The notes: generated by a model not told the origin, from the letters alone. 64,000 nucleotides of DNA from an uncultured virus (IMG/VR IMGVR_UViG_3300043570_001522) (IMGVR_UViG_3300043570_001522); one strand, 5' to 3'. Positions 48,801 through 62,295 are shown, numbered from the stretch's first letter. Translations and numbers: made by a program.

Positions 48801-50863
48801 CAGTAAATGAGAAAGCTGAACAAATAAATAAACTGTTTGACAAAGATGCTATTATGGATTTAAAACCAATATATAAAAGCAAAACATGGCAATCAAAATA
48901 TCTTGAGATATTTAATCAAATTAAAAATGATTTGTTACCAGTTACATTTTTATCAGCAAGTGAAAATTTCCAAGTCATACTTACTAAAGTATTAGAGAAT
49001 GTAAACTCTGATTCAATTGAATTTACTGAAGAAACTAAAGCAAAAATTTCTAGAGACTTGTTATCATATTTAACTATAAAAGCATATGAACAAAATAAAT
49101 TAAATAATGATCCACAATCTGTAGCAACATTAAATAACAATTTAGTTTATCCTGGTGGTGGATATGAATCAATTAATGATGTAGTTGATAGATTACGTAC
49201 AACAGAAGCTGGACAGAATAACTTCTTCTTAGATAATTTTGCAATAAGTGTTAAAGCAACAGATGCTAAAAATCAATCTGGTTTGAACTTACTTAATGCT
49301 AATACATTTAGAAGTTTGAATGCTGGTCAAAAAGTTGACTTACAAAATTCATTTGCTAAACTATATGGTTCATTAGAAACTAAGAATGATGCTTTATCTA
49401 TAATCAATTACATAATGGTCAAAGATGGCTTACAAACTGGTTATGCATCTTTACTAGAAGCTATTAGTCCATTTACTATGGATTCTTATTTAAGTCAAAT
49501 TGAAACTGCAAATAAAGCATTGAGAACAGATGATGATGCAACTATCAAAAAAGTATTTGGTTTAAAAAGAGCTGAACTAGAATCTGACTTTGTTAATAAT
49601 TACTTACAATCAAATATTAATGGGCCTTTACTATATACTATTTCTAGAAGTGAGACTGGTTCATTACCAAAAGGTGTAAGTATTAAAGATAATAAGATTA
49701 CAGTTAAATGGGATGATTTGGGTAAAACATCTCCTAAAAATTTTATAAGATTAAAACTTGAAGATATTGCTACAGGATCTGTTGTTTATAAAACATACAT
49801 GTCTATAACTGAAGATGAGTCAACAACTAAAATATATGAGGAAATAGAAACAAAAGGATCTAATCAACAAAACCCAATTGGATTTATGTTTGGTGAAAGA
49901 CCTACATATAAAGCTGTAAGACAGTCAATTAAGACTAAAAACTTGGGAGCTGAACAAGATTCATTTACTGATAGTATTCAATTTGATGAAATGTCTTTTG
50001 CACAAGGAGTTCAAACAGCAGCTTTACAAGATGAAGATGCAGTTATTGATGCAACAGAATTTGGTGTAAACATTAATGGTAATAATATTGCAAACATTAG
50101 CGCATTAGAAGCAATGCTTAATGCTGAACCAAAACAAACTACGCAACCATCTACTAGTGTTGATAGAACAACATTAGTTGATAATAAACTCAGTAAATAT
50201 GCATCAATATTAAAAGAAATATCTAGAAGAAGAGCTATGGCTACTGAAGCTGATTTAAAAAACTCTCAATTAATTAAAGATATTAGAGTTGATAAATCAC
50301 AACCTAATGATATAAAGCCCAATGCTTATGATAATAACTTAGCTGCTATAATGCTTTATGGTATGAAAATGTCTGAATTACAAGACAAAGGTTTACCAGA
50401 AGAAATGAGTGAAGCAAATCTTTTAGCTTATAGAATATTAAATGATTTATTGTTTAATCTTAATGAAATAACTGAATATTTTAATGAAATAGTTGAAAAT
50501 CCAGAATATGCAGCTGCATTAACTACTAATGAAAATCCTGTAAAAGAATTTTTTGAAAATGAGCTTTTTGATTTAACTGATAGTATTGTTGAACCTGAAA
50601 CTGATATGGCAACAACATTACTTGATTCAATGAGTGATCTTGAAAGAGAGTTGTATGAGGAGTTTGCGGCTGAAATGGAAAGTGATTATTCAGTAATTGA
50701 AAATTTCTGGGATACTAACATTCAAAAAAATGCAGAAGCTAAAGAAAAATTAAGGGTAGATAATAATGTATTATCTTTGGAAGACCTTATAGATATGTAT
50801 AATAAAGGCATATACACAAGTCAAGAAGAATTTATTGAACAAATAAAACAATGTAATTTATAA
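36824..50863 (+). CDS. Virion-packaged DNA-dependent RNA polymerase (two-barrel, crAss-type)
   Basis: 4679 aa. Catalytic GADFDIDK at 47555-47578 preceded by RIPSQDNHS; ATDNAKE motif; zincin HEAFH at 43106-43120; hydrophobic N-terminal segments. Confidence 0.9.
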   Translation: MENQVENNSLDQIITNNQVTESVIPKGDSFQPVMDMFDSEENDILMSRMDLAQLQRLDALKPLIDSTGIRSNGNALAKRPTLSSNTFDPVLQQNPPNLNEPGGFERMMDQNVKTGFQKQQKDIAPGTGVAAPAFAGMVQSNFMRYYEHPEFQKLGWKPFADNEAYYNANSTIYDDMSRMWGQFGSLAGTGFMGGYRSIGSAFTGESMTTDLKSATEFEDAIAVGNSSREGTLAWTNNLLLNSAYTVGIIGSIAAEELALAALEVGTFGGATPLVAARTAANAARLTRSIGQATTVGRLYSAGRGMMTALKGVDAAKDFWSVARAGGKMTAGLFAPETVAAVKRLKTTEVVAQNLTNMAKASEYAGSFYRDARALNLALSESKLEGGMVYNQLIKDGMDIKFAENSGSPVTTEQVADIQNNAHKAAFATTMTNMPIIYLTNKLVLGNSLGGFNKSLGRIFNEQAKGIGSRIIKTAGTVGKGGVKSLSPFKDAGTGLKGLATTIANAGVKGNLAKLGQGSLRYFAANLGEGVQEITQEAISAGTKTYYTSLLKDPMNGGPELFNASVKAGIGGQFSAQGFDVFMSGFLMGGVVSGPQKLFFQGVPALYQRVANPEKYAEYKQNKENYIKSIVDTYNAVWNAQAEDPNAIFDPKKYNFLQQKAAAQGKTLASIANDQFDFVDETDFAKFQQIHTVLSTGGAHLFQDQLLDYMKMSDEDLATAFPASKKEIKNGKIRERLQGLVNQIDVTENIYEESKDRNPNPFMPEAYEKGSRQWTEETIKKIAFEHARYLYMFTQDGFTRALERSNSIYQGLASEPLFDKMAANDLTVLLDQDSIDKEIQMLTEETIVLSGDKANQKRVKDKIEKIARLQAFKGILMNEENQTKDGSFDRRKIGLLRKEFENYVQYMANQTGSFVNKNNVNAALKQIIDYTALKGRAKVYDKAIEYLNDPQKFDLVFQRTAEVLQEQYKNRKKIFEQQVRDYVGVIERNELANQIAKAGFIPNNAEMKLFLETGDSSKLKTFYNQKGEQLGVFDKEDLEDIQALLNDYEQTRPDKKVEEVKTDEVVAEEARTEVDDILDGITIEVSVKDSVVLENTMQKAYARYAAKQTKAGKKPITLDKWINSQDGKNLRAAFIAVKKIWIDNDILVNPNNPLSEEDINAETGLITWLQSQEGKTNDLVQSVVNALGLTIDDITGQIELLPNEGQAVEGNKNVTILKKGNTVSLIELKNVDSQGNIITSYQLVDQFKQPLDEETLNRYGIASFGIYAEGDKVKALSMQRTLDNAAPDTATFTFDDTELNYGQLVYDQTGKEFIVLSQPKQVGTERKLLLIPSDEITPSVEETKKATISVKPGEFKASFNVQALDLKVLPQSVSRLNINEPIQPYAYRNKDATTDQWTESPEQALARYNLVLSILTPEELAELELVIIADPQGGMNNGNLIIPGFKEANPYIQTVRAKYSVGIRISNPDVQAKVDKAIAEKGLNKNNSGNGIFGYMQNTNFIITNSQGTVINPATMTADEYKNIIYTPEGMDINLEEDLKRAQNNFALNNLLSSVLPELVALNPDGVIAISKLPNGLSFISKPGVTMYDKAPKPLTDLEFSAADAEGNYLIYQLENNKGGARTKVAISNLEGDERRQLIDRVEESLTKQGVLDSITSLTDAYVAVVLLPDGTYALVNLKAKSIDLNEKFLELINRAETTLTDNPESNPEKFDKRFNVDYNKGLRSELFISAKPGYRLSLQVSPWGKIELEISDSNNKQIGIVRLNKSEILNKGLSVDDKLKLLLDKFNELPGVIAADVNLTTTNFRASYSREAGVQEILDKTTTQVAPQVVSPNAIQLSADSSAIQAARNIPVVEQGTFTPTESLTTTPASEVNIKAEEISTKLDILTEQFIVQGKTQKEAESLALASITEQERQVLRDAYNEDLKNGNSTVDVAADPEEVNVDNINPEDINIDDIAALRNGVRLNKLEAVKQQLELLKAQLTEGLVGAAKIKAVKDSKEYADLLAERKKLENEANKIIDFGTLTEDVEDIDAFTAWAAMALPDFISMEDIETLGDNLKAGGVRVGAFVLNLNDIGGGLTVNGTLFTGAKSPFKYHEAFHGVFRMLLTDAEIKKYLGIARKEVRAKLRAEGKSFEAELERFRNSANTYTNMSRERLEQEYYEEYLADEFEKFKANTKSTQTDSSVKSLFTRIMEWIKSVFNSFTKNQLLTLYENIDAGKFKNAGISQNQFVTSMMTGVSLEANALLPYDTEQNANNKVGYYFLDSVIAEPLVSSIAAMYIQEVSKVRDPNVKRGDILENVMNDFAALYDEETEANQKLSDEQKKFLPQISEVFYNFSDELKSEVYKVLNIITKQTQEEEFNNEYFEEEVGLRNVEQFNMDASMIGGFGSLSEGLRSYLATTTIEETDYFGNKELKPGVKLIVPINFTSAYNGLLKAVKNIDDPKKMLQNMYFFGLDNPQTGAVVTRLLQDFGISEETLLEPGPLPTKIKNPALFQSVVKGFTTFRVDYLFVQRDNAGAVLIYSAAQRDDINSQLESWSQAWGQAEKKIKTDAKVKNETVRTLEDFASYLKPSDVKMTGPKLSELSSKYSQDIFRLTGIKLSKQFIAFSIASSRKNPTVAQAALINANSEQTPISYSDILEINKLIQQGNDIFSEGETGASSRLRTLAIQNAPFDETIGASVFKNPEGNLVYAHQLPTFHLKRIQELNDIAELDRLKESDPYLANNFLLNSEAFLQMSAENRQKVLRIAGSSVGKINSTEEELNDKISGVSNKASYGNYTPQEFALSIINTYTALLNTKSNKVDSVEYFDDTLNKTVKAALAPILIRVLEASNTGDLMYLPVVKAVKFEKPGGGKVILTDEITDAFINRIESEYDRIRREESARVIRESNPIFNKFFLSANQETQLGYNDTKNGRAFKLINSGLLLTPELKTSLEEIAKREDAPSLKEALKELNVTDNAFRTVVNTQLESQYTKFSEGLVELQIEDQLGKSITEGLAATGKTNQNLIESAELLNLTYDKEYNLKQIFFNDWINTTSINDVLLGDQALTLKDGVDAVKRAKMQNAAYYSAYTSITAEDMGVMHTVDDISLVALEEPTGVSALTGNSIDRSDAQMWMTTKAFRYMWFGFGKLNPAQAKLIDKIEAGEDISSEELFGQDGYVDMGSMLNSKKLVYGDGKTFIKMSAFVLTPQLTSNKVVDENGNVTWVAKENKVDLHNLRVKLEAIEKTKDTISISAPLSALKMLKQRVNPLSDLGNTNSFTNGYTTLSAKYMGLQVLTPSNKTEVIDPTQVKNIVTSEQKDSVYVEALEMTVGQIRAAYNLATSAKVELKFKNKRNLIFSFEKGMQELAISKQNNKLTPNLTAFLRYATEGLKASQASSNLLEFFSTQDGEQKYDLNNPITLNKFEQLFLSYLSKGALAEKAPGHAVALVSDFGVKVYRRVFSVDENGVPDRSEIIRENVWNSMTNKPALGEYDTLSVTLKDNKEGVVILDRLRSGVKEYDKDGNFTGERYTEMLMPAHFKSVMDLVENTKRKFPDVLSKMFGVRIPSQDNHSTINIKHVDFLPGFYGSSAMFAQELIEISGADFDIDKVYMQIKEFYENKGQFYEYGKQTTDEGKYKDYVRYISEKVAQPGTTYAEALELYKNNLQASSIANSVTDIEQEIASDAGLSENGIKALQILGLPITKQQYLEYKKKFREPYEAPMNNAILDYKYALMGNTGVTETTSENETPISYTSASLQILQDSLAELEEVLPGLLERSREDNIDINNIIGKIKAFTNNKGAAIGAIVLPNVYLSLLTEYGITINDKGPNISVNGITYDDFGVTREQLANGTEGLRKQDIISALITMATDNAKERLVAKLGLNKHALGVVGNLTALGVPIKTSLLLINNPIIQDIYSQALNKKDKLDPGVAAITKLLLSTLIEKRKTVKIGDAESIKWAKVNDNLLIDAFNNPEEVTDNEKIAILNLFSNAVKVKDFTSNMSAVAGLTNGLGKDIASVNEKAEQINKLFDKDAIMDLKPIYKSKTWQSKYLEIFNQIKNDLLPVTFLSASENFQVILTKVLENVNSDSIEFTEETKAKISRDLLSYLTIKAYEQNKLNNDPQSVATLNNNLVYPGGGYESINDVVDRLRTTEAGQNNFFLDNFAISVKATDAKNQSGLNLLNANTFRSLNAGQKVDLQNSFAKLYGSLETKNDALSIINYIMVKDGLQTGYASLLEAISPFTMDSYLSQIETANKALRTDDDATIKKVFGLKRAELESDFVNNYLQSNINGPLLYTISRSETGSLPKGVSIKDNKITVKWDDLGKTSPKNFIRLKLEDIATGSVVYKTYMSITEDESTTKIYEEIETKGSNQQNPIGFMFGERPTYKAVRQSIKTKNLGAEQDSFTDSIQFDEMSFAQGVQTAALQDEDAVIDATEFGVNINGNNIANISALEAMLNAEPKQTTQPSTSVDRTTLVDNKLSKYASILKEISRRRAMATEADLKNSQLIKDIRVDKSQPNDIKPNAYDNNLAAIMLYGMKMSELQDKGLPEEMSEANLLAYRILNDLLFNLNEITEYFNEIVENPEYAAALTTNENPVKEFFENELFDLTDSIVEPETDMATTLLDSMSDLERELYEEFAAEMESDYSVIENFWDTNIQKNAEAKEKLRVDNNVLSLEDLIDMYNKGIYTSQEEFIEQIKQCNL

Positions 50864-50869
50864 TAAGCT

Positions 50870-53800
50870 ATGGCAAGATGTCCTAATAAAAACACACCGG
50901 AATATAAGGCTTTACAAGAAGTTTATAAAAGTGAAATTGCAACAAACAATATTATTAATAGTTGGCAAGATGCAAACAACACAGATGTTTTTCCTACTGT
51001 AGTTGAAGCACAACAATTTGCTAAATATAACAAAGTTGCTTTTGCATTAAAACAAAAAAGTTTTGCTGAAAGTTTATTAAATAATTTAAGAGAGCAAAAA
51101 TTAATTCATAGTGAGTTTGGACTGAACTTGATTAATGTTACTAATCCTGATTTGTTTTATACTAATAGAGTTGCTGATCCTGCAGTAGTAGAGAGTAACC
51201 GTAATAAAATTATCCAATATCTAAAGGCAAACAATATTCCTTTAGAAGCTGTTTCAATTATAGAAACTAAAAACACATACAGAGTAGAAGTAAATGAAAA
51301 TGTATTTACTCCTAAAGATATATTACCAGCATCTAGATCATGGGATACACCAAGATCTAGAGCTGTTGTAATGCATTTAAAAAGAATGTTTCCTCAAATA
51401 CAGGTTAAAATGCTTAGTGTTGGGGAAGCTCAAACTCTTTATAATTCATTACCACAATGGCAAAAAAGTAAAGTCAACTTCAAAGATGTTAATTCATTTT
51501 ATGTTGATGGGGTTGCTTATTTAGTTAAAGGAAGAGTAACAGATGAGACTGCAATTGAAGAGATGTTACACCCTTTTATTGATGCAATCAAAGCAGATAA
51601 TCCAGAATTATTTAATAGTTTACTTACTGAAGCTAAGAGTAATTTTCCTGAAATGGTTCAATCAATTACTGAAGCTTATAATGATAATAGAAACTTTAGT
51701 GAAGTAGAAAGAGATCTTGAAATAGTAACTCAAGCATTGTCTAGACATTTCAATAAAGAATATGAGAATACTCCAACTAAAAAATTCTTAGATAAAATTA
51801 AACAAGCACTGGATTGGTTCTTAAATGTTATTAATAATTTAAATGAATACATTACAGGCAAGCCTTTATCTGTAAAAGATATTAATAATAAAACTACATT
51901 TAGTGATGTTGCCAAGCTTTTAAATACAGAAGGTATACAGTTTAAACTTGAGAGTAGAGTGAATGGTAAAGTAAGATATTCACTATCTCCTGAAAAACAA
52001 AAGATAGTAAACAAAGCATTAGATAAATCTAATAGTATTCAGCAAGAAATAATTAATAAGTTATTTCATGTTGCCATTAGTTCAAAAGAAGAAATAGATT
52101 CATTGTCTGCAAACTTAAGTGACACTGCTTCTGCTAATACAATTGTGGTTCTTAATAAAGAAGATCATACCTATGTAGATATTACTAATAGAGAAATCTA
52201 TAAATCAGTTACTACAGCAATCAAAGGTCAACTTGCTAATGAAGAAGATGTACAACTTAATTTAGCCATTGGAAATGATGTAGATGCTTTATTAGATGCA
52301 ATTATATCAGAGCAATCATTTGATGAAGTATTTCCTAGCATGAAAGTTTTAGATGAGAAACTAGCTGGAGAAATGTTTGACATGTTGGAAGAACAACTTA
52401 CTCAATTAATTCCTCAAGGTGCCGTTGGTATTTCTCAAGTAGTTGTATTTGATGAAGCAACAAAACTTGCTGGTACAGCTGACTTAGTTGTTATAGATAA
52501 GAATGGTAAAATTAGAATTGTGGATTTAAAGACAAGTAAAAATTCTATTTATGATAGAACTTTTGTTGACTCAATTAAAAATAAAGTACCAGGTAGAACT
52601 CAAGGCACTAAATATGAAATCAAAGAATATGAGTTAAAAGATGATATGCCTGCTTTAGATGCAGAAGGAAAACCTATCTTAAATGCTGATGGTACACCAA
52701 AAATATTTCTTGGTAGTGACCTTAAAAAAATTCATGGGGTTGATAAACTATCAACCATGGCTCAACACAATCTTCAAGTAAATCTTTATAGACGTATGTT
52801 TGAAAACATGGGTTATACTGTTTATGAAGGAGACGGTGGTGCTATTACATTTCATATACAAGCAGACATAACTGGTGTAGGAAAAGACCAAGTGTTTAAT
52901 AATAACTTCAGATTAGATGGTAGGGTTGAACATCCACTATCTGAAAACTTATTATATGTTAATATGCTTGTCCCATCTGTAATGAATAATACAGAAAAAG
53001 AAAGCCTTGATAGAGCAATTGGTAATGCAGAAGATGCTATTTACCGTGGTGATCAAGATATAGAAGCATTAGAAAAAATTGCTGATACAATTGATGCTCA
53101 ACAATATCCGGAGTATAATACTATTTTTGATGCATTACAAAACTATAGTCTTGCTTTAGTAGAACAAGACAAAGCATTAGATAGACTTAAGACTAATGTT
53201 TATAGAGACAAAACTAAAGAACAAACGCGTGATGATATTGCAAGTACATTAGCCTACATTGCTAGCAATATTAATACAGGACCAATAGCTAGATCTCAAA
53301 CCTACACTAATTTATTAAGAGCTTCTTTAAATCAAATGCAAAAATTTACTGCATATGTTTTGGATCCAGCTAATATAAACAAACCTGAGTATATTACCTA
53401 TGCATTAAACTTCAATAGATTCTTAAGTACATTTGAAGCTTTGTATTCAATTAAAGATTCTAAGGAACTTAACGCTACACAAAGAACACTAGTTCTTCAG
53501 ATGCAACTTGAACAAAATAAGCTTATTGGTACAAGTGGTAAAGAAGGATTAATAAATGATGCTATTATTAACTATGTAAAAGAAACTATTAGAACCAGAT
53601 CAACTAATGATTGGGGCGGTCAAGGTAGTGCATTTACAGAAGATATGTTAGATGATCTTATGACTATATCTCCGGATATTGCAATGGATGCATTAAATGT
53701 ACAAGATATGGCTACTCAAAAAGATACCATACTTGCAGTAATGGATAAAATATATAAGAGTCAAAAACAAAAACTTTTAGATCAAATTGAAGAAAGAGAA

Positions 53801-56647
53801 TTTTCAATTAGAACTGCAGGTAATGAGTTATTAAAACTTTCAGGAAATAAAGATCTTCAAAGTCTTTATGACTTTATGTTGGAGTATGATAAGGATGGTG
53901 AATTTACTGGGTTCTATACTCAAAAAATTGGCCAACAATATTATTCAATGCAACAAGCATTGAGAAGTCAACTTTATGATGATAATGGTAATCCATATGA
54001 ATACAGAGACGTAAGTAATTTAGATAAAGCAAAGCCGGAAGATATTAAATACAACATTGATCTTGCTAAAAAGAAAGCTGCATTTAGCAAATTCTTTCAA
54101 GCTGAAGGATCAAATGCTAATGGTGAATTGATTGATGGTGAATTTCATAAATATACTGATGAGTTTAAACAAGCTAGAAGTAGATATGAATTTTGGGTAC
54201 CATCTAAAAATAAAGAATATGGAACTTGGTATAGAAAACCAAGAATATCAGATAGGGACTACGCTATATATGAAGCCAAGTATTATAACTTTGGTACATA
54301 TACTAAAGCATTAAGAACTAATGGTCAACCAACAGGAGCAATAGCAAAAGAACAAGTATTACGTTCTCCAAAAGTTAAGTTTAGAGTGGCTAGAGAAATA
54401 TCTGAATCTGGCCAAGATATGCGTAGTAAAAAGTATGCTGCATTAATGGATCTTAATAAAACAGATGCATTAAGTGTTGCTCAAAGAAATTTTTATAATA
54501 TGTTTATTACATATTATGAAACTGAATTATTAAATAAATTACCACAAAGTATCAAAGATCAAATGTCAGGACGTGTTCCTATTGTTAAAAATAATATTTT
54601 AGATACTTTAAAAGACCAACCAAACATTGTATCTAAAATGTATGCTAATACAGTTAGATCTATTAAGAACTTTACACAAGAGACAGCAACACAAAAGAAT
54701 GTTTTACTTGATGAACAAGGTAATTTTGTTGATTCACTTCCTATATTCTATACAGGTAAGTTAAGAGTAGATGAAGATCTTGCTAATGTTGAAACAGAGA
54801 TAACAGCATTACAAGATAAAAAGAGAAAGGGATTAATTGGTCCTGAAGCATATAAACAAGAATTGTTATTACTTAATGGTAAAGCAGCACAACTTAGGAG
54901 TCAACCTTCATTAGGAGAACTTAATAAAGACATGACTAATGCTTTACTTAAGTTTAGTGCAATGGCAGAACATTATGAAGTGATGGGTGAAATTGAAGAC
55001 ACTCTTACTGCAATGGTAAAAGTTATTGAAAATAGAACATATACTCCAGCTGATCCATTAATAGTTACAGGAACAAGAATTGACAATAAATTTAAAAAAG
55101 TAGGTACAATTAAAGGTACAGACTCCAATGCTTTAAGAAGAGCTAAGAAATACATGTCAATGATTTACTATGATAATGAGCTTGCAACAAAAGGAATGAT
55201 TGATAAAGTTGCTGATGAGCTTATTGGTCTATCTTCATTATCTTATGTAGCATTTAACCCATTTGGTAACCTTAATAACTATGTTATGGGTAGAATCAAT
55301 AATGGTATTGAAATGTTAGGTAGTAGATACTTTAGTAAACAAAACTATGCCAGAGCTTCTAGAGAATATAATGTGCAAGGTATTCCAGGATTATTAGCTA
55401 GAACAAGTGCGGCTGCAACTGATATTGCTGATATTGTTACACTAGGGAAAGCTGGATTAAAAAAATCAGACTATGATGCAAATAAACCTAATACTAAATA
55501 TGAAGCTTTTGTAGATATGTTTAGAATGATGGATAAAGCTACAGATATCCGTGAAAATACTTCTGAGTTTGATAGCAAATCTATTTGGTCTAGATTTAAA
55601 GAATGGGGATATGTAATACAAGATGCTGCTGAATACAATGTGCAAAGTAAAGTTGGTATGGCTATACTTATGGATGTTACAATTAAAAACAGTAGCACTG
55701 GAGAAACATTATCACTTTATGATGCATTCCAATATAATTCAGATACTCATAAAAATGAATTAATGCCTGGGTATGATACTATTATAAATAAAAATGGAAG
55801 TGAGCAACCATACAGTGATCAATTTAGATATGATTTAAGAAATGAAATTAGAGAGGTGAATAAACAAATTCACGGTAACTATGCTAAAGAAGATAGAATG
55901 GTTATTCAAGGACATACTCTTGGGAATTTAGCAACACAGTTTCACAAGTGGGTAGCACCTGCAATTAGAGCTAGATTTAGAAGAGAATACTTTGATCAAA
56001 ATTTAGGATGGATTGAAGGTAGATATAGATCTTTCTTTAAATTTTTAAATCATGCTAAAGGTGAAATAGTCCGTGGTAATTTTAATATAAATCCTGCTAA
56101 GTATAATGAAAGTTTTAAAGAAGCATATGGTTTCACAGGACAAGGTGGAAATCTAGATCAAAGAGCTGAAGATAAACTTAGAGGTTTTTATAGAACAACT
56201 GGTGAAATTGGTATTATGTTAAGTATTGTTGTATTAAACTCATTATTGGCCGGTATATTAGCTGGTGATGATGATGATGAAGAGTTAACCAAAAGATTAA
56301 AAAATCTTGTAAGACTACAAGGAGACAGAACATATAAAGAGATGGTATTATTTACACCATTGCCTGAAGGTTTAAAACAACAATATGCGTTAATGAAATC
56401 ACCAATTGCAACTACAAGAACATTAGGTGAATTAGGTGAAGCAATATCATTAAGTTATATGACACCATTAGCATATATATATGAAGGTAAAGATGGATTT
56501 TATGCTGATAAAGATTATGTATATCAAAACAAACCTAATAAAGGTCAATTAAAATTATACAAAAACTGGGCAGATGTTGTTCCTATTTTATATTCTATAC
56601 AGAAATGGGATAATATGATCAAAGCACAAGATTTCTACATCAAGTAA
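50870..56647 (+). CDS. Large cargo protein with degenerate zincin-like and PD-(D/E)xK nuclease domains
   Basis: 1925 aa; IEEMLHPF; AGTADLVVID...IVDLKTS...QHNLQVNLY; C-terminal TM-like helix followed by DDDDEE. Confidence 0.7.
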   Translation: MARCPNKNTPEYKALQEVYKSEIATNNIINSWQDANNTDVFPTVVEAQQFAKYNKVAFALKQKSFAESLLNNLREQKLIHSEFGLNLINVTNPDLFYTNRVADPAVVESNRNKIIQYLKANNIPLEAVSIIETKNTYRVEVNENVFTPKDILPASRSWDTPRSRAVVMHLKRMFPQIQVKMLSVGEAQTLYNSLPQWQKSKVNFKDVNSFYVDGVAYLVKGRVTDETAIEEMLHPFIDAIKADNPELFNSLLTEAKSNFPEMVQSITEAYNDNRNFSEVERDLEIVTQALSRHFNKEYENTPTKKFLDKIKQALDWFLNVINNLNEYITGKPLSVKDINNKTTFSDVAKLLNTEGIQFKLESRVNGKVRYSLSPEKQKIVNKALDKSNSIQQEIINKLFHVAISSKEEIDSLSANLSDTASANTIVVLNKEDHTYVDITNREIYKSVTTAIKGQLANEEDVQLNLAIGNDVDALLDAIISEQSFDEVFPSMKVLDEKLAGEMFDMLEEQLTQLIPQGAVGISQVVVFDEATKLAGTADLVVIDKNGKIRIVDLKTSKNSIYDRTFVDSIKNKVPGRTQGTKYEIKEYELKDDMPALDAEGKPILNADGTPKIFLGSDLKKIHGVDKLSTMAQHNLQVNLYRRMFENMGYTVYEGDGGAITFHIQADITGVGKDQVFNNNFRLDGRVEHPLSENLLYVNMLVPSVMNNTEKESLDRAIGNAEDAIYRGDQDIEALEKIADTIDAQQYPEYNTIFDALQNYSLALVEQDKALDRLKTNVYRDKTKEQTRDDIASTLAYIASNINTGPIARSQTYTNLLRASLNQMQKFTAYVLDPANINKPEYITYALNFNRFLSTFEALYSIKDSKELNATQRTLVLQMQLEQNKLIGTSGKEGLINDAIINYVKETIRTRSTNDWGGQGSAFTEDMLDDLMTISPDIAMDALNVQDMATQKDTILAVMDKIYKSQKQKLLDQIEEREFSIRTAGNELLKLSGNKDLQSLYDFMLEYDKDGEFTGFYTQKIGQQYYSMQQALRSQLYDDNGNPYEYRDVSNLDKAKPEDIKYNIDLAKKKAAFSKFFQAEGSNANGELIDGEFHKYTDEFKQARSRYEFWVPSKNKEYGTWYRKPRISDRDYAIYEAKYYNFGTYTKALRTNGQPTGAIAKEQVLRSPKVKFRVAREISESGQDMRSKKYAALMDLNKTDALSVAQRNFYNMFITYYETELLNKLPQSIKDQMSGRVPIVKNNILDTLKDQPNIVSKMYANTVRSIKNFTQETATQKNVLLDEQGNFVDSLPIFYTGKLRVDEDLANVETEITALQDKKRKGLIGPEAYKQELLLLNGKAAQLRSQPSLGELNKDMTNALLKFSAMAEHYEVMGEIEDTLTAMVKVIENRTYTPADPLIVTGTRIDNKFKKVGTIKGTDSNALRRAKKYMSMIYYDNELATKGMIDKVADELIGLSSLSYVAFNPFGNLNNYVMGRINNGIEMLGSRYFSKQNYARASREYNVQGIPGLLARTSAAATDIADIVTLGKAGLKKSDYDANKPNTKYEAFVDMFRMMDKATDIRENTSEFDSKSIWSRFKEWGYVIQDAAEYNVQSKVGMAILMDVTIKNSSTGETLSLYDAFQYNSDTHKNELMPGYDTIINKNGSEQPYSDQFRYDLRNEIREVNKQIHGNYAKEDRMVIQGHTLGNLATQFHKWVAPAIRARFRREYFDQNLGWIEGRYRSFFKFLNHAKGEIVRGNFNINPAKYNESFKEAYGFTGQGGNLDQRAEDKLRGFYRTTGEIGIMLSIVVLNSLLAGILAGDDDDEELTKRLKNLVRLQGDRTYKEMVLFTPLPEGLKQQYALMKSPIATTRTLGELGEAISLSYMTPLAYIYEGKDGFYADKDYVYQNKPNKGQLKLYKNWADVVPILYSIQKWDNMIKAQDFYIK

Positions 56648-57433: not shown

Positions 57434-57449
57434 TTTTTGTATATTATAG
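57434..57449 (+). promoter_or_regulatory. Putative phage promoter motif TTTTTGTATATTATAG (lysis cassette)
   Basis: Repeated motif in the divergent intergenic region, preceded by the palindrome AATTTTATAAAATT (57419-57432). Confidence 0.6.
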
Positions 57450-57501
57450 GTGTATAGTTTAGGCAATAGCCTAGCAAATATAAGATATATATATATTTAT
57501 A

Positions 57502-57888
57502 ATGAAAAATAGAATAATTAATATTTTCAGTTATTATGATACTGAACCAATGGAAATACTTATTGGTTTAATATGGTTTATCCTGTTGCCAATCATATGG
57601 TGCTTTGAGTTTTCTTGTAACTTATTTATCATTATCCCAAGTATTTTATTGGGTATAGCTATGATTAAAGCAACATGTTCTCATCCAATTAAAGTTAGAA
57701 AAACTTTATCTTACGGATCATTTATCTTCTCCATTTTTGTAATTCTAGCATTTGTATTTAGAGGTGCAATGGACAATCCTTCTCATTGGTTATGGTTTTT
57801 ACCATCAATTATATCTTTTTTAAACCTAACAGCAATGACATCAAAATATTATAGAAAACAAAAACAAAGTAGCCATGACATCATATGA
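57502..57888 (+). CDS. Four-TM membrane protein (holin/antiholin candidate)
   Basis: Four hydrophobic segments, basic C-terminal tail, first gene of the lysis cassette. Confidence 0.5.
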   Translation: MKNRIINIFSYYDTEPMEILIGLIWFILLPIIWCFEFSCNLFIIIPSILLGIAMIKATCSHPIKVRKTLSYGSFIFSIFVILAFVFRGAMDNPSHWLWFLPSIISFLNLTAMTSKYYRKQKQSSHDII

Positions 57889-58189
57889 TAATTTAACAAC
57901 TGTATTAGTCACAATGATGACTGTTCTATTCTCTGCTGGAGCATGGAAATTTTATGAAAAAAAAATAAAGTTAAAAACTGAGTTAGAACGGGAAGATAGA
58001 ACTGATCAGAATATGTATAGAGATGATTTAAGAGATAGAGTCAGAAGGCTTGAACAATTACTTACAGACAGTGCAATTGAAAAAGATGTAATGAGAGAAC
58101 AAATCCTTTCACTTACTAAAGAAGTAACGGCATTACATGTAAAAGTTGAGTACTTAGAAAAAGAAAATCAAAGACTTAAGAATATTTAA
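57875..58189 (+). CDS. One-TM + coiled-coil protein (holin-like)
   Basis: N-terminal TM ending AWKFY, long heptad tail; an architecture common in phage lysis cassettes. Confidence 0.55.
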   Translation: MTSYDNLTTVLVTMMTVLFSAGAWKFYEKKIKLKTELEREDRTDQNMYRDDLRDRVRRLEQLLTDSAIEKDVMREQILSLTKEVTALHVKVEYLEKENQRLKNI

Positions 58190-58222
58190 GCAACTTATAT
58201 ATTTGGTTTTATATATTAGAAG

Positions 58223-58234
58223 TTGTATATTATA
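58223..58234 (+). promoter_or_regulatory. Putative phage promoter motif TTGTATATTATA
   Basis: Repeated motif, with TTTG about 20 nt upstream of the TA. Confidence 0.5.
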
Positions 58235-58264
58235 TATAAGTAATATTAATCAAAATTAAAAATT

Positions 58265-58477
58265 ATGTTTAAAAAAGTATTATTGGCTACATGGACTTCT
58301 TCATTAGAGAAATTTTGGAATTTTATTTTACCAAAAACACCAATTAATGAAATTGAAGTGAGAAGTGTATTAGTTAAGCCAAAAATTGAAGATATTGTTG
58401 ATACAGTTAAAGTTGCACCAGCTAAACCTAAAAAAAAATATTATAAATCAAAACCTAAAGTAAATACTAAAAAATAA
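58265..58477 (+). CDS. Small protein with Lys-rich C-terminus
   Basis: 70 aa ORF with A-rich leader. Confidence 0.5.
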   Translation: MFKKVLLATWTSSLEKFWNFILPKTPINEIEVRSVLVKPKIEDIVDTVKVAPAKPKKKYYKSKPKVNTKK

Positions 58478-58491
58478 TTTACTCATACTAA

Positions 58492-59601
58492 ATGAAAAAT
58501 TTATCAAAAGAAGAGTTATTAAGTAGACTTGAAGCAATTAATAGAAGTAATGCTATTATCTACTTTGATCTTAGTGGTATTATACTAGGAGTAAATGACA
58601 TTTTTTTGGAAGCAATGGGTTATGGTGCGAGTAATCATGATGAACTTATAGGTAAACATCATAGTACTTTTGTATGTGAAGAATATGCAAAGTCAACTGA
58701 ATATGAAAAATTTTGGGACATATTAAGAAGTGGTAAATACTACCAGGGAGAATTTGAGAGAAGAAGAAAAGATGGAAGTCTTATTAATCTTCAAGCAACT
58801 TATAATCCTATTTTTGATGATAGTGGTAAGATTACTAAAATAATGAAGATTGCTACTGACATTAGTGCTATTGTTAGTAGTAAAAAACAGATAGATGCTA
58901 TCAATAGAAGTACAGCTCTTATTAGTTTTAATACTGACGGGTTTATAACAGATGTAAATCCTATATTTTTACAAACTATGGGGTATAAATCCAATGAAAA
59001 AGATAAAGTCATTGGAAAGCATCATAGTATTTTTGTAAGTTATGAATATTCAAAGTCAGATGAGTATGCTAAGTTTTGGGAGAATTTAAGAAAAGGTACA
59101 TTCTTTGATGGGATATTTGAAAGAAGGAAAGTAGATGGATCTATTGTTTATTTACAAGCATCATATAATCCTGTACTTGACAGTAAAGGTAATATTACAG
59201 ATGTAGTTAAAATTGCAACTGATATTACTGAAGCTGTAAACAGTAAAAAGAAAATAGATGAACTGTCAAATAATTTAGCAGTTGAATTAAAAAACTCTGA
59301 AAAACTTAAAGACGCAATAGAAAAAGAAAAAGATGCTGCTTTAAATGACTTAGATGCAGTATTAAAAAAGAGTCAAAATGAATTAATAAAAGTAATTGTC
59401 AAATGTGCTTTGGCAGTTATATTAGGAGTTGGAGTTGTAACAACTGTACTATATTGGGCAGCTATTATAACAAATAAAGAAACTCAAATAATTGGATCAA
59501 CATGGAGTAATATGTTTAGTGTATTATTAACTAATGCATTTTCAATAGTAGGTACAATTATGGGCATTAAGTATGCCACACAAGAAGGTAGTAACAAATA
59601 A
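58492..59601 (+). CDS. Tandem PAS-PAS / coiled-coil / two-TM protein
   Basis: Two internally duplicated PAS/PAC units (AINRS..F...G.I..VN..FL..MGY....IGKHHS.FV...FW..LR.G....G.FERR..DGS...LQA.YNP..D..G.IT...KIATDI) like those of BdlA-type cytoplasmic chemoreceptors. No MCP or kinase output domain; two C-terminal TM helices. Confidence 0.85.
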   Translation: MKNLSKEELLSRLEAINRSNAIIYFDLSGIILGVNDIFLEAMGYGASNHDELIGKHHSTFVCEEYAKSTEYEKFWDILRSGKYYQGEFERRRKDGSLINLQATYNPIFDDSGKITKIMKIATDISAIVSSKKQIDAINRSTALISFNTDGFITDVNPIFLQTMGYKSNEKDKVIGKHHSIFVSYEYSKSDEYAKFWENLRKGTFFDGIFERRKVDGSIVYLQASYNPVLDSKGNITDVVKIATDITEAVNSKKKIDELSNNLAVELKNSEKLKDAIEKEKDAALNDLDAVLKKSQNELIKVIVKCALAVILGVGVVTTVLYWAAIITNKETQIIGSTWSNMFSVLLTNAFSIVGTIMGIKYATQEGSNK

Positions 59602-59612
59602 AAAAGAACAAG

Positions 59613-60080
59613 ATGCAACTGAGTAAAAATTTAGCACTAGCAGAAGTAACAAGAAGTGAAACTGCAAAGAGAAAAGGAATTAGTAATATGCCAACTCCAG
59701 AACACATTGAAAATTTTAAAAAGTTAGCTGAGAATATATTCCAGCCAATTAGAGAACACTTTGGAGTTCCTATTCATATCTCATCAGGGTACAGAAGCAA
59801 GGCTCTTAATACTGCTATTGGAGGAAGTTTATCTTCACAGCATTGCCAGGGTGAAGCTATTGATATTGATATGGATGGTAGTGCAAGTGGTGTTACTAAT
59901 GCAGATGTATTTAAGTACATCAAAGATAATTTAAATTTTGATCAAATGATTTGGGAATTTGGTACTGATAAAAACCCTGATTGGGTACACGTATCTTATG
60001 AGTCAACCGGTAAACAAAGAAAACAAATTTTAAAAGCTGTAAAAGCTGGAGGAAAAACAAGCTATGTACCATATAAGTAA
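59613..60080 (+). CDS. Endolysin, peptidase M15 family (Zn D-Ala-D-Ala peptidase fold)
   Basis: SSGYRS..LN..IGG...SQH..GEAID...WVHVS motifs. Confidence 0.9.
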   Translation: MQLSKNLALAEVTRSETAKRKGISNMPTPEHIENFKKLAENIFQPIREHFGVPIHISSGYRSKALNTAIGGSLSSQHCQGEAIDIDMDGSASGVTNADVFKYIKDNLNFDQMIWEFGTDKNPDWVHVSYESTGKQRKQILKAVKAGGKTSYVPYK

Positions 60081-60399
60081 GTTTATAAAACAACAATGGC
60101 TTGGATCCATTTTAATTGTACTGTTCTTCCTATTCTTGTTTTATGGAATAGGACAGAATAGTGAATTGAAAAAAGAAAAGGAAGCTCTTGAAAAAGACAT
60201 TGAAGTGCTTGAGCAAAAGGAACTATTACACTGGTATAAACTTGATAGTTTAAAGGTTAGTGAAAGCACTATAATCAAAAAAGAAAAAATATTAATACAA
60301 ATACAACATGACACAATTAAGGTTATTGATACTATGTCTACTAGTGAGCTTCAAAAGTATTTCACAAACAGATACTATCAAAAAGATAGTATTAGATGA
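60064..60399 (+). CDS. Putative inner-membrane spanin (Rz-like)
   Basis: N-terminal TM plus coiled coil, directly after the endolysin, overlapping the next gene. Confidence 0.6.
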   Translation: MYHISKFIKQQWLGSILIVLFFLFLFYGIGQNSELKKEKEALEKDIEVLEQKELLHWYKLDSLKVSESTIIKKEKILIQIQHDTIKVIDTMSTSELQKYFTNRYYQKDSIR

Positions 60400-60775
60400 A
60401 AGAGTTGGTAGAGAAGTTGTAAAAGATCTTATTAAAGGAGATGTTTGTAGACAGCTTTTAACTCTTAAGAATGAAAATATTAAGAACTTGCAAGAGCAGA
60501 ATAAAGAACTTGCAGAGATTATAAAAATTAAAGACAGTATTCTTTCTAAGAAAGATGATATAATTACTATTCAAGATAAAGCTATTGGTTGGTGGAAAAA
60601 ACCTGAGCTTCATGGATATCTAAGAGTTCAGACTGTAAATATCAGTTTAGTTGATCCTTATTTATTTGGAATTGTAATGGTGGAATTTCCAAAGATTAAA
60701 ATAGGAGGGCAATATTTTGTACAACCAAATAATCCAACAGGGTATGGATTAATTCTTGAATATAAATTATTTTAA
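60308..60775 (+). CDS. Putative outer-membrane spanin partner (Rz1-like position)
   Basis: Overlaps the i-spanin gene in another frame; signal peptide, coiled coil, and amphipathic beta C-terminus ending YKLF. Confidence 0.5.
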   Translation: MTQLRLLILCLLVSFKSISQTDTIKKIVLDERVGREVVKDLIKGDVCRQLLTLKNENIKNLQEQNKELAEIIKIKDSILSKKDDIITIQDKAIGWWKKPELHGYLRVQTVNISLVDPYLFGIVMVEFPKIKIGGQYFVQPNNPTGYGLILEYKLF

Positions 60776-60779
60776 ACTA

Positions 60780-60929
60780 ATGGCAGCTAAAGCAAAAACA
60801 CAAACAACAACATTCAAACCTACTGTAAAAGTAAGCAGACCTGGTGTACATGCTAAAAAGTCAACTTCTAAATTAAAATCTAGTAAAAACTATAAAAAAA
60901 GTTATGTTGGCCAAGGTAAAAGAAGATAA
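60780..60929 (+). CDS. Small highly basic protein (49 aa, absent from ORF track)
   Basis: MAAKAKTQTTTFKPTVKVSRPGVHAKKSTSKLKSSKNYKKSYVGQGKRR. Confidence 0.7.
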   Translation: MAAKAKTQTTTFKPTVKVSRPGVHAKKSTSKLKSSKNYKKSYVGQGKRR

Positions 60930-62028: not shown

Positions 62029-62295
62029 ATGAGAACTGAAAAAAAAATAAGTTGGATTAAAGGTTTGCTTCAAGATGAAACAGGTATTCCCTCATCAAAA
62101 AGATTTGTTGGTATTATAGCAGGTCTTGTTTTATCTTTCACGCTTATTGTAAATCAATTTACTCCAAAATTAACAGATCCATCTCCTGTATTAGTTAATG
62201 CAGTTGCAATGTTAGCATTTGGATGTTTGGGATTGGCTTCTGTAGATAAAATTTGGGGTAAAAGAAATTCAGAAAATATAAACAATAACCAATAA
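62029..62295 (+). CDS. Two-TM holin-like membrane protein
   Basis: LLQDETG.PSSKRF followed by two TM helices. Confidence 0.5.
   Translation: MRTEKKISWIKGLLQDETGIPSSKRFVGIIAGLVLSFTLIVNQFTPKLTDPSPVLVNAVAMLAFGCLGLASVDKIWGKRNSENINNNQ

What the first reader, a model, noticed from the sequence alone, without database searches (positions are those of the whole stretch)
57434..60775. Candidate sensor-gated lysis system: a PAS-PAS membrane protein embedded in the phage lysis cassette
Seen: 58492..59601 encodes two complete tandem PAS/PAC domains, then a coiled coil and two C-terminal TM helices. It lies 11 nt upstream of the M15 endolysin, which is followed by spanin-like genes. It is downstream of two holin-like genes and shares a promoter motif (58223) with the endolysin. 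Established: this PAS_3-type tandem normally heads cytoplasmic chemoreceptors such as Pseudomonas BdlA, and PAS domains commonly sense O2, redox or ligands via heme or flavin. Here the signalling output is replaced by a holin-sized two-TM module. Inference: a captured bacterial sensor has been rewired into a holin/antiholin, so that lysis timing responds to host redox, oxygen or metabolic state. I know of no characterised PAS-gated holin.
Basis: partly seen in the sequence, partly recalled or inferred. Interest (0 to 1): 0.9.

Follow-up and report, generated by a model that had tools for sequence, protein, structure and literature searches.

The report
Sensor-fused membrane hairpin in lysis cassette
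An uncultured lake-water phage encodes, directly before its cell-wall-cutting enzyme, an optional but very strongly conserved protein that joins two flavin-type PAS sensor domains through one long helix to a two-helix membrane hairpin, so it probably adjusts when the host bursts to a signal inside the cell, which nobody has tested.

Summary
58492-59601 encodes two PAS_3 domains, one long helix and two C-terminal membrane helices, 11 nt before an M15 endolysin.

- **Distribution:** the protein belongs to one tight, phage-only family. It has thousands of metagenome copies and 281 viral-contig matches, but only 4 small MAG contigs among 185,579 species genomes.
- **Context:** in 85 loci with 63 distinct gene orders, an endolysin of one of four unrelated types lies within three ORFs in 74.
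- **Optional:** the gene is present in 15 of 38 well-flanked M15 cassettes.
- **Selection:** dN/dS is 0.08. Residues 331-363 (loop and TM2) are identical in all 84 copies despite saturated synonymous change.
- **Cofactor:** both PAS domains keep the Trp and His that mark FAD-binding PAS domains.
- **Not a known holin:** the membrane part matches no holin family, and no single holin family always accompanies it.

Best reading: a signal-responsive lysis-timing accessory, not shown to be a holin. No paper in the held library describes this. The scan had already noted the family in at least 18 other genomes.

The parts
57437..57448 (+). Promoter-like motif TTGTATATTATA, 65 nt before ORF 57502
   Evidence: One search gives an exact match. 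The same 12-mer is exact at 11896 and 58223. All + strand copies lie 23-65 nt before ORF starts.
57502..57888 (+). 128-aa membrane protein (at least 2 TM segments), no known family; holin-like by topology only
   Evidence: No Pfam or PHROG hit passes threshold.
57875..58189 (+). 104-aa protein with a hydrophobic N-terminus and a coiled coil; phrog_2658 'hol-like chemotaxis'
   Evidence: E 8.3e-8. Pfam hits are all below cut-off.
58223..58234 (+). Promoter-like motif TTGTATATTATA, 42 nt before ORF 58265; probable start of the transcript that carries the PAS gene and the endolysin
   Evidence: No terminator-like site lies on the + strand between 56600 and 62600. Co-transcription is inferred.
58265..58477 (+). 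70-aa lysine-rich ORF, no family
58492..59601 (+). PAS-PAS-helix-2TM protein (369 aa), the subject of the finding
   Evidence: The family is described.
58528..58872 (+). PAS domain 1 (residues 13-127); H57, W75 and N105 invariant
58909..59241 (+). PAS domain 2 (residues 140-250); H178, W196 and N226 invariant
59227..59376 (+). Cytoplasmic part of the long helix (residues 246-295), coiled-coil-like, continuous with TM1
   Evidence: helix 246-327 in the model.
59377..59460 (+). TM1 (residues 296-323); variable, with two main sequence types among relatives
59482..59580 (+). Invariant loop plus TM2 (residues 331-363), amphipathic; 10 of 22 TM2 residues are polar or Gly
   Evidence: Identical in 84 of 84 copies and in the 64-68% identical relatives. 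Third-codon identity is 0.61. dN/dS is 0.009. Hydrophobic moment is 1.02, reached by 2.5% of shuffles.
59613..60080 (+). Endolysin, Peptidase_M15_3 / phrog_894
60064..60399 (+). 111-aa protein with an N-terminal TM and a coiled coil; i-spanin-like
   Evidence: phrog_1026 Rz-like spanin at E 0.0027. It travels with the M15 gene in 8 of 80 loci.
60308..60775 (+). 155-aa protein with a signal-peptide-like N-terminus, overlapping the previous gene; possible outer-membrane partner, no lipobox recognised
   Evidence: no family. Cluster 8 occurs in 14 loci.
62029..62295 (+). 88-aa two-TM protein, member of the small two-TM family (cluster 1) that is the commonest neighbour of the PAS gene elsewhere; best holin candidate of this phage
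   Evidence: Cluster 1 lies within 3 ORFs of the PAS gene in 50 of 85 loci.

Best explanation
The gene encodes an optional, phage-specific accessory of the lysis cassette that couples an intracellular signal to the cytoplasmic membrane, and through it to the time of lysis.

**Shown here**
- Two cytoplasmic PAS domains of the flavin (Aer / AerC / MmoS / NifL) type.
- A single helix that runs from PAS2 straight into TM1.
- A short outer loop and an amphipathic TM2 that never changes.
- A strong, context-independent association with endolysins and holins.
- Strong purifying selection on every part of the protein.

**Inferred**
- The PAS domains bind FAD and read the redox or energy state of the infected cell.
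- The helix passes that state to the hairpin.
- The hairpin acts either by forming or gating a small leak that lowers the membrane potential, or by acting on a conserved host membrane component.
- It probably does not act on one particular phage holin, because it stays invariant while holins and endolysins around it vary.
- Holins in general fire when the membrane is de-energised (established knowledge of lambda S and T4 T, recalled). Such a device could therefore advance or delay lysis in any cassette into which it is moved.
For: **Architecture**
-.

**Phage-only, tight family**
- 4010 hits, and the best 120 are 85-100% identical and 367-388 aa long.
- 281 viral-contig matches.
- only 4 matches in one genome for each of 185,579 species, all on MAG contigs of 3-32 kb.
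- among the best 150 representatives at 50% identity, one full-length form (P0249) and two short ones. The rest are cellular multi-PAS proteins.

**Lysis context**
- Neighbour families are GH19, GH24, M15_3 and PG_binding_1+phrog_3000 endolysins, plus Phage_holin_4_1 holins.
- An endolysin lies within 3 ORFs in 74 of 85 loci and is directly adjacent in 51.
- A Pfam- or PHROG-backed lysis gene lies within 2 ORFs in 68 of 80 loci that have flanks on both sides. There are 63 distinct gene orders among the 85 loci.

**Optional**
- PAS is present in 25 of 80 M15 loci, and in 15 of 38 with at least 2 kb on both sides.
- PAS-less cassettes with the same M15 and spanin-like genes exist: L106, L134, L142.

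**Selection**
- dN/dS is 0.082 with dS about 1, and 0.009 for residues 331-363.
- Those 33 residues are identical in 84 of 84 copies. They are also identical in the relatives whose whole protein is only 64-68% identical and in the single-PAS forms.
- Synonymous sites vary there as much as elsewhere.

**No universal phage partner**
- Of 55 loci with at least 4 ORFs on each side, cluster 1 occurs in 35, Phage_holin_4_1 in 29 and neither in 14.
- The two TM1 sequence types each occur with both holin kinds.

**FAD type**
- The best solved relatives are MmoS 3EWK (1.1e-11), Aer 8DIK and NifL 2GJ3. MmoS is also first by fold.
- H57/W75 and H178/W196 align with the His and Trp of MmoS and Aer and are invariant.
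- Xing et al. 2023 name the F-alpha Trp as the primary FAD determinant, with His as a second one in the Aer and AerC clusters (PMC10468136, passages read).

**TM2**
- TM2 is amphipathic.

**Independent analogue**
- Cultured Cellulophaga phage phi14:2 has a TM-coil-PAS protein (g078) that overlaps its GH19 endolysin gene by 4 nt.
Against: - No experiment exists. Cofactor binding, topology, oligomer state and any effect on lysis are all inferred.
- The membrane part matches no holin or antiholin family. The best lysis hit is phrog_689 at E 0.69.
- Eleven of 85 loci show no recognised endolysin within 3 ORFs. Five of these have at most one downstream ORF, but six do not. Pfam found no lysis domain in 22 neighbouring ORFs from 7 of the 11 loci.
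- Lysis cassettes are known landing sites for unrelated late-expressed genes (recalled: stx and bor in lambdoid phages). Adjacency alone therefore cannot prove a lysis role.
- The neighbouring M15 endolysin is also 83-94% identical across hundreds of contigs. High conservation is therefore partly a property of this phage gene pool and not unique to the PAS gene.
- The third FAD determinant, an Asn, could not be placed with confidence from the alignments seen.
- No RNA data were available.
Confidence: 0.45

Rival explanations
1. Partner-specific antiholin. The hairpin binds one phage holin in the membrane, most likely the small two-TM cluster-1 protein. It holds that holin inactive until the PAS domains change state, as RI does for holin T in T4.
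For: - Cluster 1 is the commonest neighbour. It is adjacent in 39 of 85 loci and within 3 ORFs in 50. In a wider, de-duplicated set it lies within 2.5 kb in 109 of 161 loci.
- The orders cluster1-PAS-endolysin and PAS-cluster1-endolysin recur.
- In PAS-less relatives cluster 1 sits directly before the M15 gene: L128, L130, L134, L142.
- Being dispensable is typical of antiholins (recalled).
Against: - 20 of 55 well-flanked loci lack cluster 1 within 4 ORFs, and 14 lack both cluster 1 and Phage_holin_4_1.
- In the window the cluster-1 gene lies 2.4 kb away.
- TM2 is invariant, whereas the cluster-1 copies found beside it are only 36-59% identical to the window's copy. That is not what co-evolving partners would show.
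Confidence: 0.15
2. PAS-gated holin. The two-TM tail itself forms the hole that releases the endolysin, and the PAS domains set when it opens.
For: - It has two membrane helices and sits directly before the endolysin with an 11-nt gap.
- TM2 is amphipathic, polar-rich and invariant.
- 14 of 55 well-flanked loci, the window included, have neither cluster 1 nor Phage_holin_4_1 within 4 ORFs.
Against: - It is optional. It is absent from 23 of 38 well-flanked M15 cassettes.
- It co-occurs with a canonical Phage_holin_4_1 holin in 41 of 85 loci.
- It matches no holin family.
- At 369 aa, with about 295 cytoplasmic residues, it is unlike any described holin (recalled).
Confidence: 0.1
3. Not a lysis protein. 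It is a late-expressed membrane sensor with another job, such as superinfection exclusion, control of host respiration or membrane transport, or counter-defence. It merely rides in the lysis region because that region tolerates insertions and is transcribed late.
For: - The gene is optional and mobile between unrelated phage backbones.
- The invariant TM2 fits a conserved host target.
- At least six loci show no lysis gene nearby.
- No known lysis family matches.
Against: - The gene is interleaved with lysis genes and does not merely flank the cassette. Lysis or cluster-1 genes lie on both sides within 2 ORFs in 30 of 80 loci.
- The association holds across four endolysin types and 63 gene orders.
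- An unrelated membrane-anchored PAS protein sits in the same slot in phi14:2. This points to convergence on a lysis-linked role.
Confidence: 0.25

Closest known systems
T4 lysis inhibition: holin T with antiholins RI (periplasmic) and RIII (cytoplasmic). PMC11413866 and PMC8385771, abstract starts seen in the listing. ICP1 lysis inhibition, PMC7182436, same listing.
   Same: An optional phage protein encoded with the lysis genes that makes the time of lysis depend on a sensed signal.
   Different: - RI senses superinfection in the periplasm and binds holin T.
- Here the sensor is cytoplasmic, of a cofactor-binding PAS type, and is fused to its own membrane hairpin.
- No sequence relation was found, and no single holin partner.
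Phage 21 pinholin S21-68 and other class II holins (recalled, not retrieved here)
   Same: Two membrane helices. The second helix is amphipathic with a polar face. The gene sits directly before the endolysin.
   Different: - Pinholins are about 70 aa and essential for lysis.
- This protein is 369 aa and optional.
- It matches no holin family.
- Pore formation is untested.
FAD-binding PAS sensors: E. coli Aer (8DIK), MmoS (3EWK), NifL (2GJ3), AerC
   Same: PAS fold. The F-alpha Trp and the His of the FAD site are conserved in both domains. The tandem-PAS layout is like that of AerC and MmoS.
   Different: - The output is a helix plus two-TM hairpin. It is not an MCP signalling domain or a kinase.
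- Identity is 24% to MmoS by fold alignment.
- FAD binding is untested.
Cellulophaga phage phi14:2 g078 'PAS fold protein' next to endolysin g077 (NC_021806.1)
   Same: A membrane-anchored PAS protein encoded immediately before, and overlapping, the endolysin gene of a phage of Flavobacteriia. This phage is cultured, so it offers a bench system.
   Different: - The layout is the opposite: an N-terminal single TM, a coiled coil and one C-terminal PAS, 209 aa in all.
- BLASTP finds no similarity to the window protein (E 3.5).
- It is annotated only and has not been characterised.
Vibriophage VP882 VqmA_Phage (PMC8284805, abstract start seen; cited in PMC10468136)
   Same: A phage-encoded PAS sensor that ties a lysis-related decision to a small-molecule signal.
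   Different: VqmA_Phage is a soluble transcription factor (PAS plus DNA-binding domain) that controls the lysis-lysogeny switch. It is not a membrane protein in the lysis cassette.
LytSR control of the holin-like CidAB/LrgAB proteins (PMC6997555, abstract start seen)
   Same: Sensor-dependent control of holin-like or antiholin-like membrane proteins.
   Different: It is a bacterial, transcriptional two-component system. Sensor and membrane effector are separate proteins.

Membership tests
PAS fold (Pfam PAS_3 / PAS_9) | Sequence match above the curated cut-off and a five-stranded PAS fold | tested here: met
   PAS_3 scores 90.4 bits against a cut-off of 25.6, in two stretches. The AF2 model shows two PAS folds with pLDDT mostly above 90. 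Foldseek top hits are tandem-PAS sensors.
FAD-binding PAS clade (Aer, AerC, NifL, MmoS) | Conserved Trp on helix F-alpha, the primary determinant (Xing et al. 2023) | tested here: met
   W75 and W196 align with the Trp of MmoS and Aer and are present in 84 of 84 copies. The rule comes from PMC10468136, passages read.
FAD-binding PAS clade (Aer, AerC, NifL, MmoS) | Secondary His (Aer and AerC clusters) and Asn (NifL and Aer clusters) | tested here: inconclusive
   H57 and H178 align with the His of MmoS and Aer and are invariant. N105 and N226 are invariant, but their equivalence to the FAD-site Asn could not be fixed from the alignments seen.
FAD-binding PAS clade (Aer, AerC, NifL, MmoS) | Bound flavin | not testable with these tools
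   Needs purified protein and UV-visible spectra.
Methyl-accepting chemotaxis protein (the name given by one source) | MCP signalling domain (PF00015) | tested here: not met
   No MCPsignal hit in the window protein. The domain is present in 6 of 18 nearest cellular relatives scanned, one of them below Pfam's cut-off.
Known holin families (Pfam and PHROG holin models) | Sequence match to a holin model | tested here: not met
   The C-terminal 115 aa scanned alone give only DUF2189 at E 0.033 in Pfam. In PHROGs the best lysis hit is phrog_689 holin at E 0.69, and phrog_1544 (unknown function) scores E 0.0047.
Holin (functional class) | Required membrane protein of the cassette that forms the lethal hole | tested here: not met
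   This row tests the 'required' part. The gene is absent from 23 of 38 well-flanked M15 cassettes. It co-occurs with Phage_holin_4_1 in 41 of 85 loci. Hole formation itself cannot be tested here.
Class II holin / pinholin | Two TMDs with N-in, C-in topology, and a small size of about 70-150 aa | tested here: inconclusive
   Two TM segments and cytoplasmic PAS domains imply N-in, C-in, but this is inferred. The size of 369 aa does not fit.
Antiholin (functional class) | Constant pairing with, and binding to, one holin | tested here: not met
   This row tests pairing. No neighbour family is universal: cluster 1 in 35, holin_4_1 in 29 and neither in 14 of 55 loci. Binding cannot be tested here.
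Phage 'kinase - receiver - stand-alone hairpin' unit (claimed in earlier notes of this scan) | A stand-alone homologue of this hairpin without PAS domains | tested here: not met
   None was found in four searches:
- 79 viral loci carrying the TM2 motif held 55 tandem-PAS forms, 17 single-PAS forms, 6 fragments and 1 chance match.
- 12,224 ORFs of the held loci, searched with an HMM of the C-terminal part, gave 224 hits, all of them family members.
- 50,697 phage records searched by tblastn at E up to 5 gave no match.
- Five whole phage records gave one match each, the PAS gene.

Distant stand-alone forms are not excluded, because no profile search of a large protein library was run with this part alone.
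Two-component spanin (for 60064..60399 and 60308..60775) | An i-spanin with an N-terminal TMD and coiled coil, plus an overlapping o-spanin lipoprotein with a lipobox Cys | tested here: inconclusive
   - The first gene has an N-terminal TM and a weak Rz-like hit (E 0.0027).
- The second overlaps it and has a signal-peptide-like start, but no clear lipobox by eye and no family.

The most novel reading that the evidence does not exclude
The protein is a flavin-redox-gated membrane depolariser, and the invariant amphipathic TM2 lines a small self-assembled leak.

- **Trigger:** when the PAS-bound FAD reports a change in the host's respiratory or energy state, the long helix opens or closes this leak.
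- **Effect:** the resulting change in membrane potential fires, or holds back, whichever holin the phage carries.
- **What this explains:** why one unchanged hairpin works in phages with different holins and four kinds of endolysin, why it is optional, and why it moves freely between cassettes.
- **Consequence:** it would be a portable, holin-independent lysis timer that lets lake phages read host metabolism.
Probability: 0.25. Interest if true: 0.9.

Novelty: new variant of a known kind. Interest (0 to 1): 0.75.

Why it matters
- **Current view:** lysis timing is a central life-history trait of phages. Apart from T-even and ICP1 lysis inhibition, which sense superinfection from outside, it is thought to run on a holin-concentration clock.
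- **What this would change:** a widespread phage family that wires a cytoplasmic, cofactor-type sensor directly to a membrane element inside the lysis cassette would mean that many environmental phages adjust burst time to the physiological state of the host.
- **Ecology:** this bears on models of phage-host dynamics in lakes.
- **Tool value:** it would offer a compact, natural sensor-to-membrane switch.
- **Testability:** the gene is small. Natural single-PAS and PAS-less cassettes exist for comparison. A cultured phage, phi14:2, carries an analogous gene.

Tried and rejected
- **Homodimer prediction:** Complex prediction with two full-length copies gave no verdict (score 0.12, mark 0.42). 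It counts neither way.
- **RNA evidence:** no RNA holder was listed among 24 runs. The holders are DNA runs of lake water, sediment, soil and wetland. Read laying was not used, because contigs cannot show expression.
- **PAS-less hairpin:** the search among shorter proteins gave 1729 hits. All 16 read in full were fragments or internal-Met calls of the same family.
- **ESM Atlas:** the C-terminal part gave a best score of 0.78, to a 104-aa viral cluster. That is below the level of a lead, and no id is given to test it.
- **Known phage records:** tblastn of the whole protein gave 3 records. One, MT836939, is a high-GC contig whose 675-aa ORF reads as a bacterial PAS-PAS chemoreceptor. This was judged by eye and not scanned with Pfam. 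The C-terminal part alone gave no match.
- **Sigma-70 and terminator scan:** 34 promoter-like sites against 39.7 expected, which is uninformative. One terminator-like site, on the minus strand.
- **Own genome:** none is held for this window.
- **TM1 variants against neighbours:** the two TM1 sequence types show no strict link with holin type.
- **Cluster 7:** this is an antisense ORF inside the 3' end of the PAS gene. It was treated as spurious and dropped from the neighbour counts.
- **Non-independent loci:** L082 and L037 have the same length (4939 bases) and gene order and are probably one contig. L009 and L010 have the same gene order. For this reason distinct gene orders are also given.

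Full report
**Setting**

- The window has about 30% G+C and no tRNA.
- It is almost entirely a plus-strand block of phage structural genes with giant ORFs of 2039, 1414, 4679 and 1925 aa.
- The 2039-aa protein finds only distant relatives, 24-28% identical. They are in Cellulophaga phages phi4:1 and phi17:2, Flavobacterium psychrophilum phages, a Leptolyngbya phage and a crAss-like gut phage.
- No whole genome is held for the window.
- Near-identical DNA occurs in lake-water metagenome runs.
- The host is therefore probably a freshwater member of the Bacteroidota. This is inferred from relatives and base composition.

**The observation**

- ORF 58492..59601 (369 aa) carries two PAS_3 domains, whole-protein E 9e-26.
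- An AlphaFold2 model built on a 40-row alignment has mean pLDDT 85.6. It shows two PAS folds, one unbroken helix from residue 246 to 327, a four-residue turn and a second helix 332-364.
- Hydropathy places membrane segments at 298-316 and 341-359.
- The PAS domains must therefore be cytoplasmic. The helix leaving PAS2 becomes TM1 without a break.
- The M15_3 endolysin gene starts 11 nt after the stop codon.
- The two genes after it are spanin-like by topology, with weak support.
- The two genes before it are membrane or coiled-coil proteins without a holin-family match.
- The 12-mer TTGTATATTATA is exact at 57437, 58223 and 11896, and has one mismatch at 4922 and 16165. All five copies are on the plus strand, 23-65 nt before ORF starts.
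- No plus-strand terminator-like site lies between 56600 and 62600.
- The PAS gene and the endolysin are therefore probably co-transcribed from 58223. This is inferred.

**A tight, phage-only family**

- The 5.8-billion-protein search gave 4010 hits. The best 120 are 85-100% identical and 367-388 aa long, and one source often names them 'methyl-accepting chemotaxis protein'.
- In IMG/VR, 281 stretches encode a relative. The 80 kept are 80-92% identical.
- In one genome for each of 185,579 prokaryote species there are only 4 matches, all on MAG contigs of 3-32 kb.
- In the library of 50%-identity representatives, one full-length representative (P0249, 371 aa, 77%) and two short ones are the only family-like entries among the best 150. 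The rest are cellular multi-PAS proteins, 28-49% identical.
- Of 18 of those scanned, 6 carry an MCP signalling domain (one below Pfam's cut-off), one a STAS domain and none a kinase domain.
Its specific mention of Pseudomonas BdlA was not tested.

**Context**

- I called ORFs in the 84 related loci and the window and clustered 1116 proteins into 410 groups.
- A tblastn of 20 window proteins found the PAS protein in 80 of the 80 viral loci, the M15 endolysin in 17 and almost nothing else. The backbones therefore differ.
- The neighbours are nevertheless lysis genes:
  - cluster 2 is a GH19 endolysin;
  - cluster 3 is PG_binding_1 plus phrog_3000;
  - cluster 5 is a GH24 lysozyme;
  - cluster 6 is M15_3;
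  - clusters 4, 13 and 46 are Phage_holin_4_1 holins.
- An endolysin is the adjacent ORF in 51 of 85 loci, the second in 18, the third in 5, and not seen in 11. Five of those 11 have at most one downstream ORF.
- In 22 neighbouring ORFs from 7 of the 11 loci, Pfam found no lysis domain.
- A Pfam- or PHROG-backed lysis gene lies within two ORFs in 68 of the 80 loci with flanks on both sides. There are 63 distinct gene orders among the 85 loci.
- The commonest neighbour is cluster 1, a small two-TM protein with a charged tail, found within 3 ORFs in 50 of 85 loci.

**The gene is optional**

The 80 kept are 83-94% identical.
- The PAS gene is within the fetched DNA in 25 of those 80 loci. It is present in 15 of the 38 that have at least 2 kb on each side.
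- Cassettes with the same M15 and spanin-like genes but no PAS gene exist: L106, L134, L142. In L128, L130, L134 and L142 the cluster-1 gene sits directly before M15.

**Natural variants**

- Single-PAS forms of 245-262 aa are common. I found 5 among the M15 loci and 17 of 79 motif-bearing loci.
- By eye they are mosaics of PAS1 and PAS2.
- Tandem forms only 64-68% identical also exist.
- All of these keep the same loop and TM2.

**Selection**

- Across 84 copies, residues 331-363 are identical in every sequence.
- Third-codon-position identity in that stretch is 0.61, no higher than the 0.62-0.70 seen elsewhere. The constraint is therefore on the protein and not on the DNA.
- Nei-Gojobori dN/dS is 0.082 for the whole gene, 0.08-0.10 for each PAS domain and 0.009 for the invariant stretch, with dS near 1.
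- Both the sensor and the hairpin are thus kept by selection.
- TM2 is amphipathic. Its hydrophobic moment of 1.02 is reached by 2.5% of shuffles, and 10 of its 22 residues are polar or Gly.

**Which signal**

- By sequence the best solved relatives are the FAD-binding tandem PAS of MmoS (3EWK, 1.1e-11), the Aer PAS domain (8DIK) and NifL (2GJ3).
- By fold MmoS is first, followed by the heme sensors DosP and FixL, NifL and LOV proteins.
- Xing et al. 2023 state that a Trp on helix F-alpha is the primary determinant of FAD binding in the NifL, MmoS, AerC and Aer clusters. A His is a second determinant in the Aer and AerC clusters (PMC10468136, passages read).
- In the printed alignments W75 and H57 pair with the Trp and His of MmoS, and W196 and H178 with those of Aer. 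All four are present in 84 of 84 copies.
- Flavin-based redox or energy sensing is therefore the best guess. Heme or another ligand is not excluded.

**What the hairpin does**

- It matches no holin family.
- It is optional, and it often sits beside a canonical holin. It is therefore unlikely to be the holin.
- No neighbour family is universal. Of 55 loci with at least four ORFs on each side, cluster 1 is present in 35, Phage_holin_4_1 in 29 and neither in 14, the window included.
- The two main TM1 sequence types each occur with both holin kinds.
- An element that never changes while its supposed partners do is more easily explained in one of two ways. It may assemble with itself into a small leak, or it may act on a conserved host membrane component.
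- Because holins fire on loss of membrane potential (recalled), either mode could shift lysis time in any cassette. That would explain why the gene is portable.
- This step is inferred. A dimer prediction gave no verdict.

**Earlier notes of this scan**

- The same family was noted in at least 18 other genomes, with the same general reading.
- Some notes add that other phages encode this hairpin as a separate protein beside their own kinase and receiver. I could not reproduce that with the means left:
  - 79 viral loci with the TM2 motif held only tandem-PAS forms, single-PAS forms, fragments and one chance match;
  - an HMM of the C-terminal part found no non-family hit among 12,224 ORFs of the held loci;
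  - tblastn against 50,697 phage records found nothing;
  - five whole phage records of 120-272 kb, two of them with terminal repeats, hold one copy each.
- Distant stand-alone relatives are not excluded.
- One note named Cellulophaga phage phi14:2, and that checked out. g078, annotated 'PAS fold protein', has an N-terminal TM, a coiled coil and a C-terminal PAS domain (209 aa). It overlaps the GH19 endolysin gene g077 by 4 nt. BLASTP finds no similarity to the window protein.
- It is therefore an independent case of a membrane-anchored PAS protein in the same slot, in a cultured phage.

**Literature**

- Three full-text searches found no paper that describes a PAS protein in a phage lysis cassette:
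  - 'PAS domain' + holin + endolysin + phage gave 5 papers, none relevant by title and abstract start;
  - 'PAS domain' + antiholin gave 4 papers, none on phages;
  - 'phage-encoded' / 'PAS domain' / 'lysis cassette', requiring any two of the three terms, gave 10 listed papers, none relevant.
- The library lacks most subscription journals, so this is not proof of absence.

**Verdict**

The gene is a conserved, optional, phage-only sensor-to-membrane protein of lysis cassettes, probably a lysis-timing accessory.
- It is not shown to be a holin or an antiholin.

Noticed in passing
window 4922, 11896, 16165, 57437, 58223 (+ strand): The 12-mer TTGTATATTATA (exact three times, one mismatch twice) always lies 23-65 nt before an ORF start. 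It is a candidate phage promoter motif, unlike the sigma-70 consensus.
   Followed up: partly
window 62029..62295: An 88-aa two-TM protein of the family (cluster 1) that most often neighbours the PAS gene in other phages. It is a likely class-II-type holin, and here it lies 2.4 kb downstream of the endolysin, not beside it.
   Followed up: partly
L088, L089, L090, L151, L157 and 17 of the loci L164-L242: Single-PAS forms (245-262 aa) of the same protein. By eye they are mosaics of PAS1 and PAS2, as if made by unequal recombination between the two PAS repeats.
   Followed up: partly
L289 (NC_021806.1) 18796-19985, minus strand: Cultured Cellulophaga phage phi14:2 has a TM-coiled coil-PAS protein (g078) overlapping its GH19 endolysin gene (g077) by 4 nt. 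It is unrelated in sequence to the window protein.
   Followed up: yes
window 36824..50863, 18396..24515, 50870..56647, 24515..28759: Giant ORFs of 4679, 2039, 1925 and 1414 aa. The 4679-aa one matches no PHROG. The 1414-aa one holds a transglycosylase-like stretch (phrog_4602) and may be a virion-borne wall-cutting protein.
   Followed up: no
window 60756..60929 and cluster 24 in 8 loci: A small, very basic protein (about 48-57 aa, rich in Lys and Ser) recurs just after the lysis genes in several otherwise different phages.
   Followed up: no
window 60308..60775: The overlapping second 'spanin-like' protein has a signal-peptide-like start without a clear lipobox, and it ends in ...YKLF. That ending resembles an outer-membrane-protein C-terminus more than an o-spanin lipoprotein.
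   Followed up: no
L164, L165, L181, L186 and 4 of 84 aligned copies: In PAS1 the first His of the GKHHS motif is Lys in some copies, while the second His (H57) never changes. This fits H57 being the functional residue.
   Followed up: partly
L018 1708-2547: One PAS-bearing locus without a recognised endolysin carries an SPFH/Band 7 membrane-scaffold protein a few genes upstream.
   Followed up: no
window 2751..3281 and 14931..16130: A phrog_858 'starvation-inducible transcriptional regulator'-like DNA-binding protein and an SbcD-like exonuclease (phrog_704) sit inside the structural gene block.
   Followed up: no
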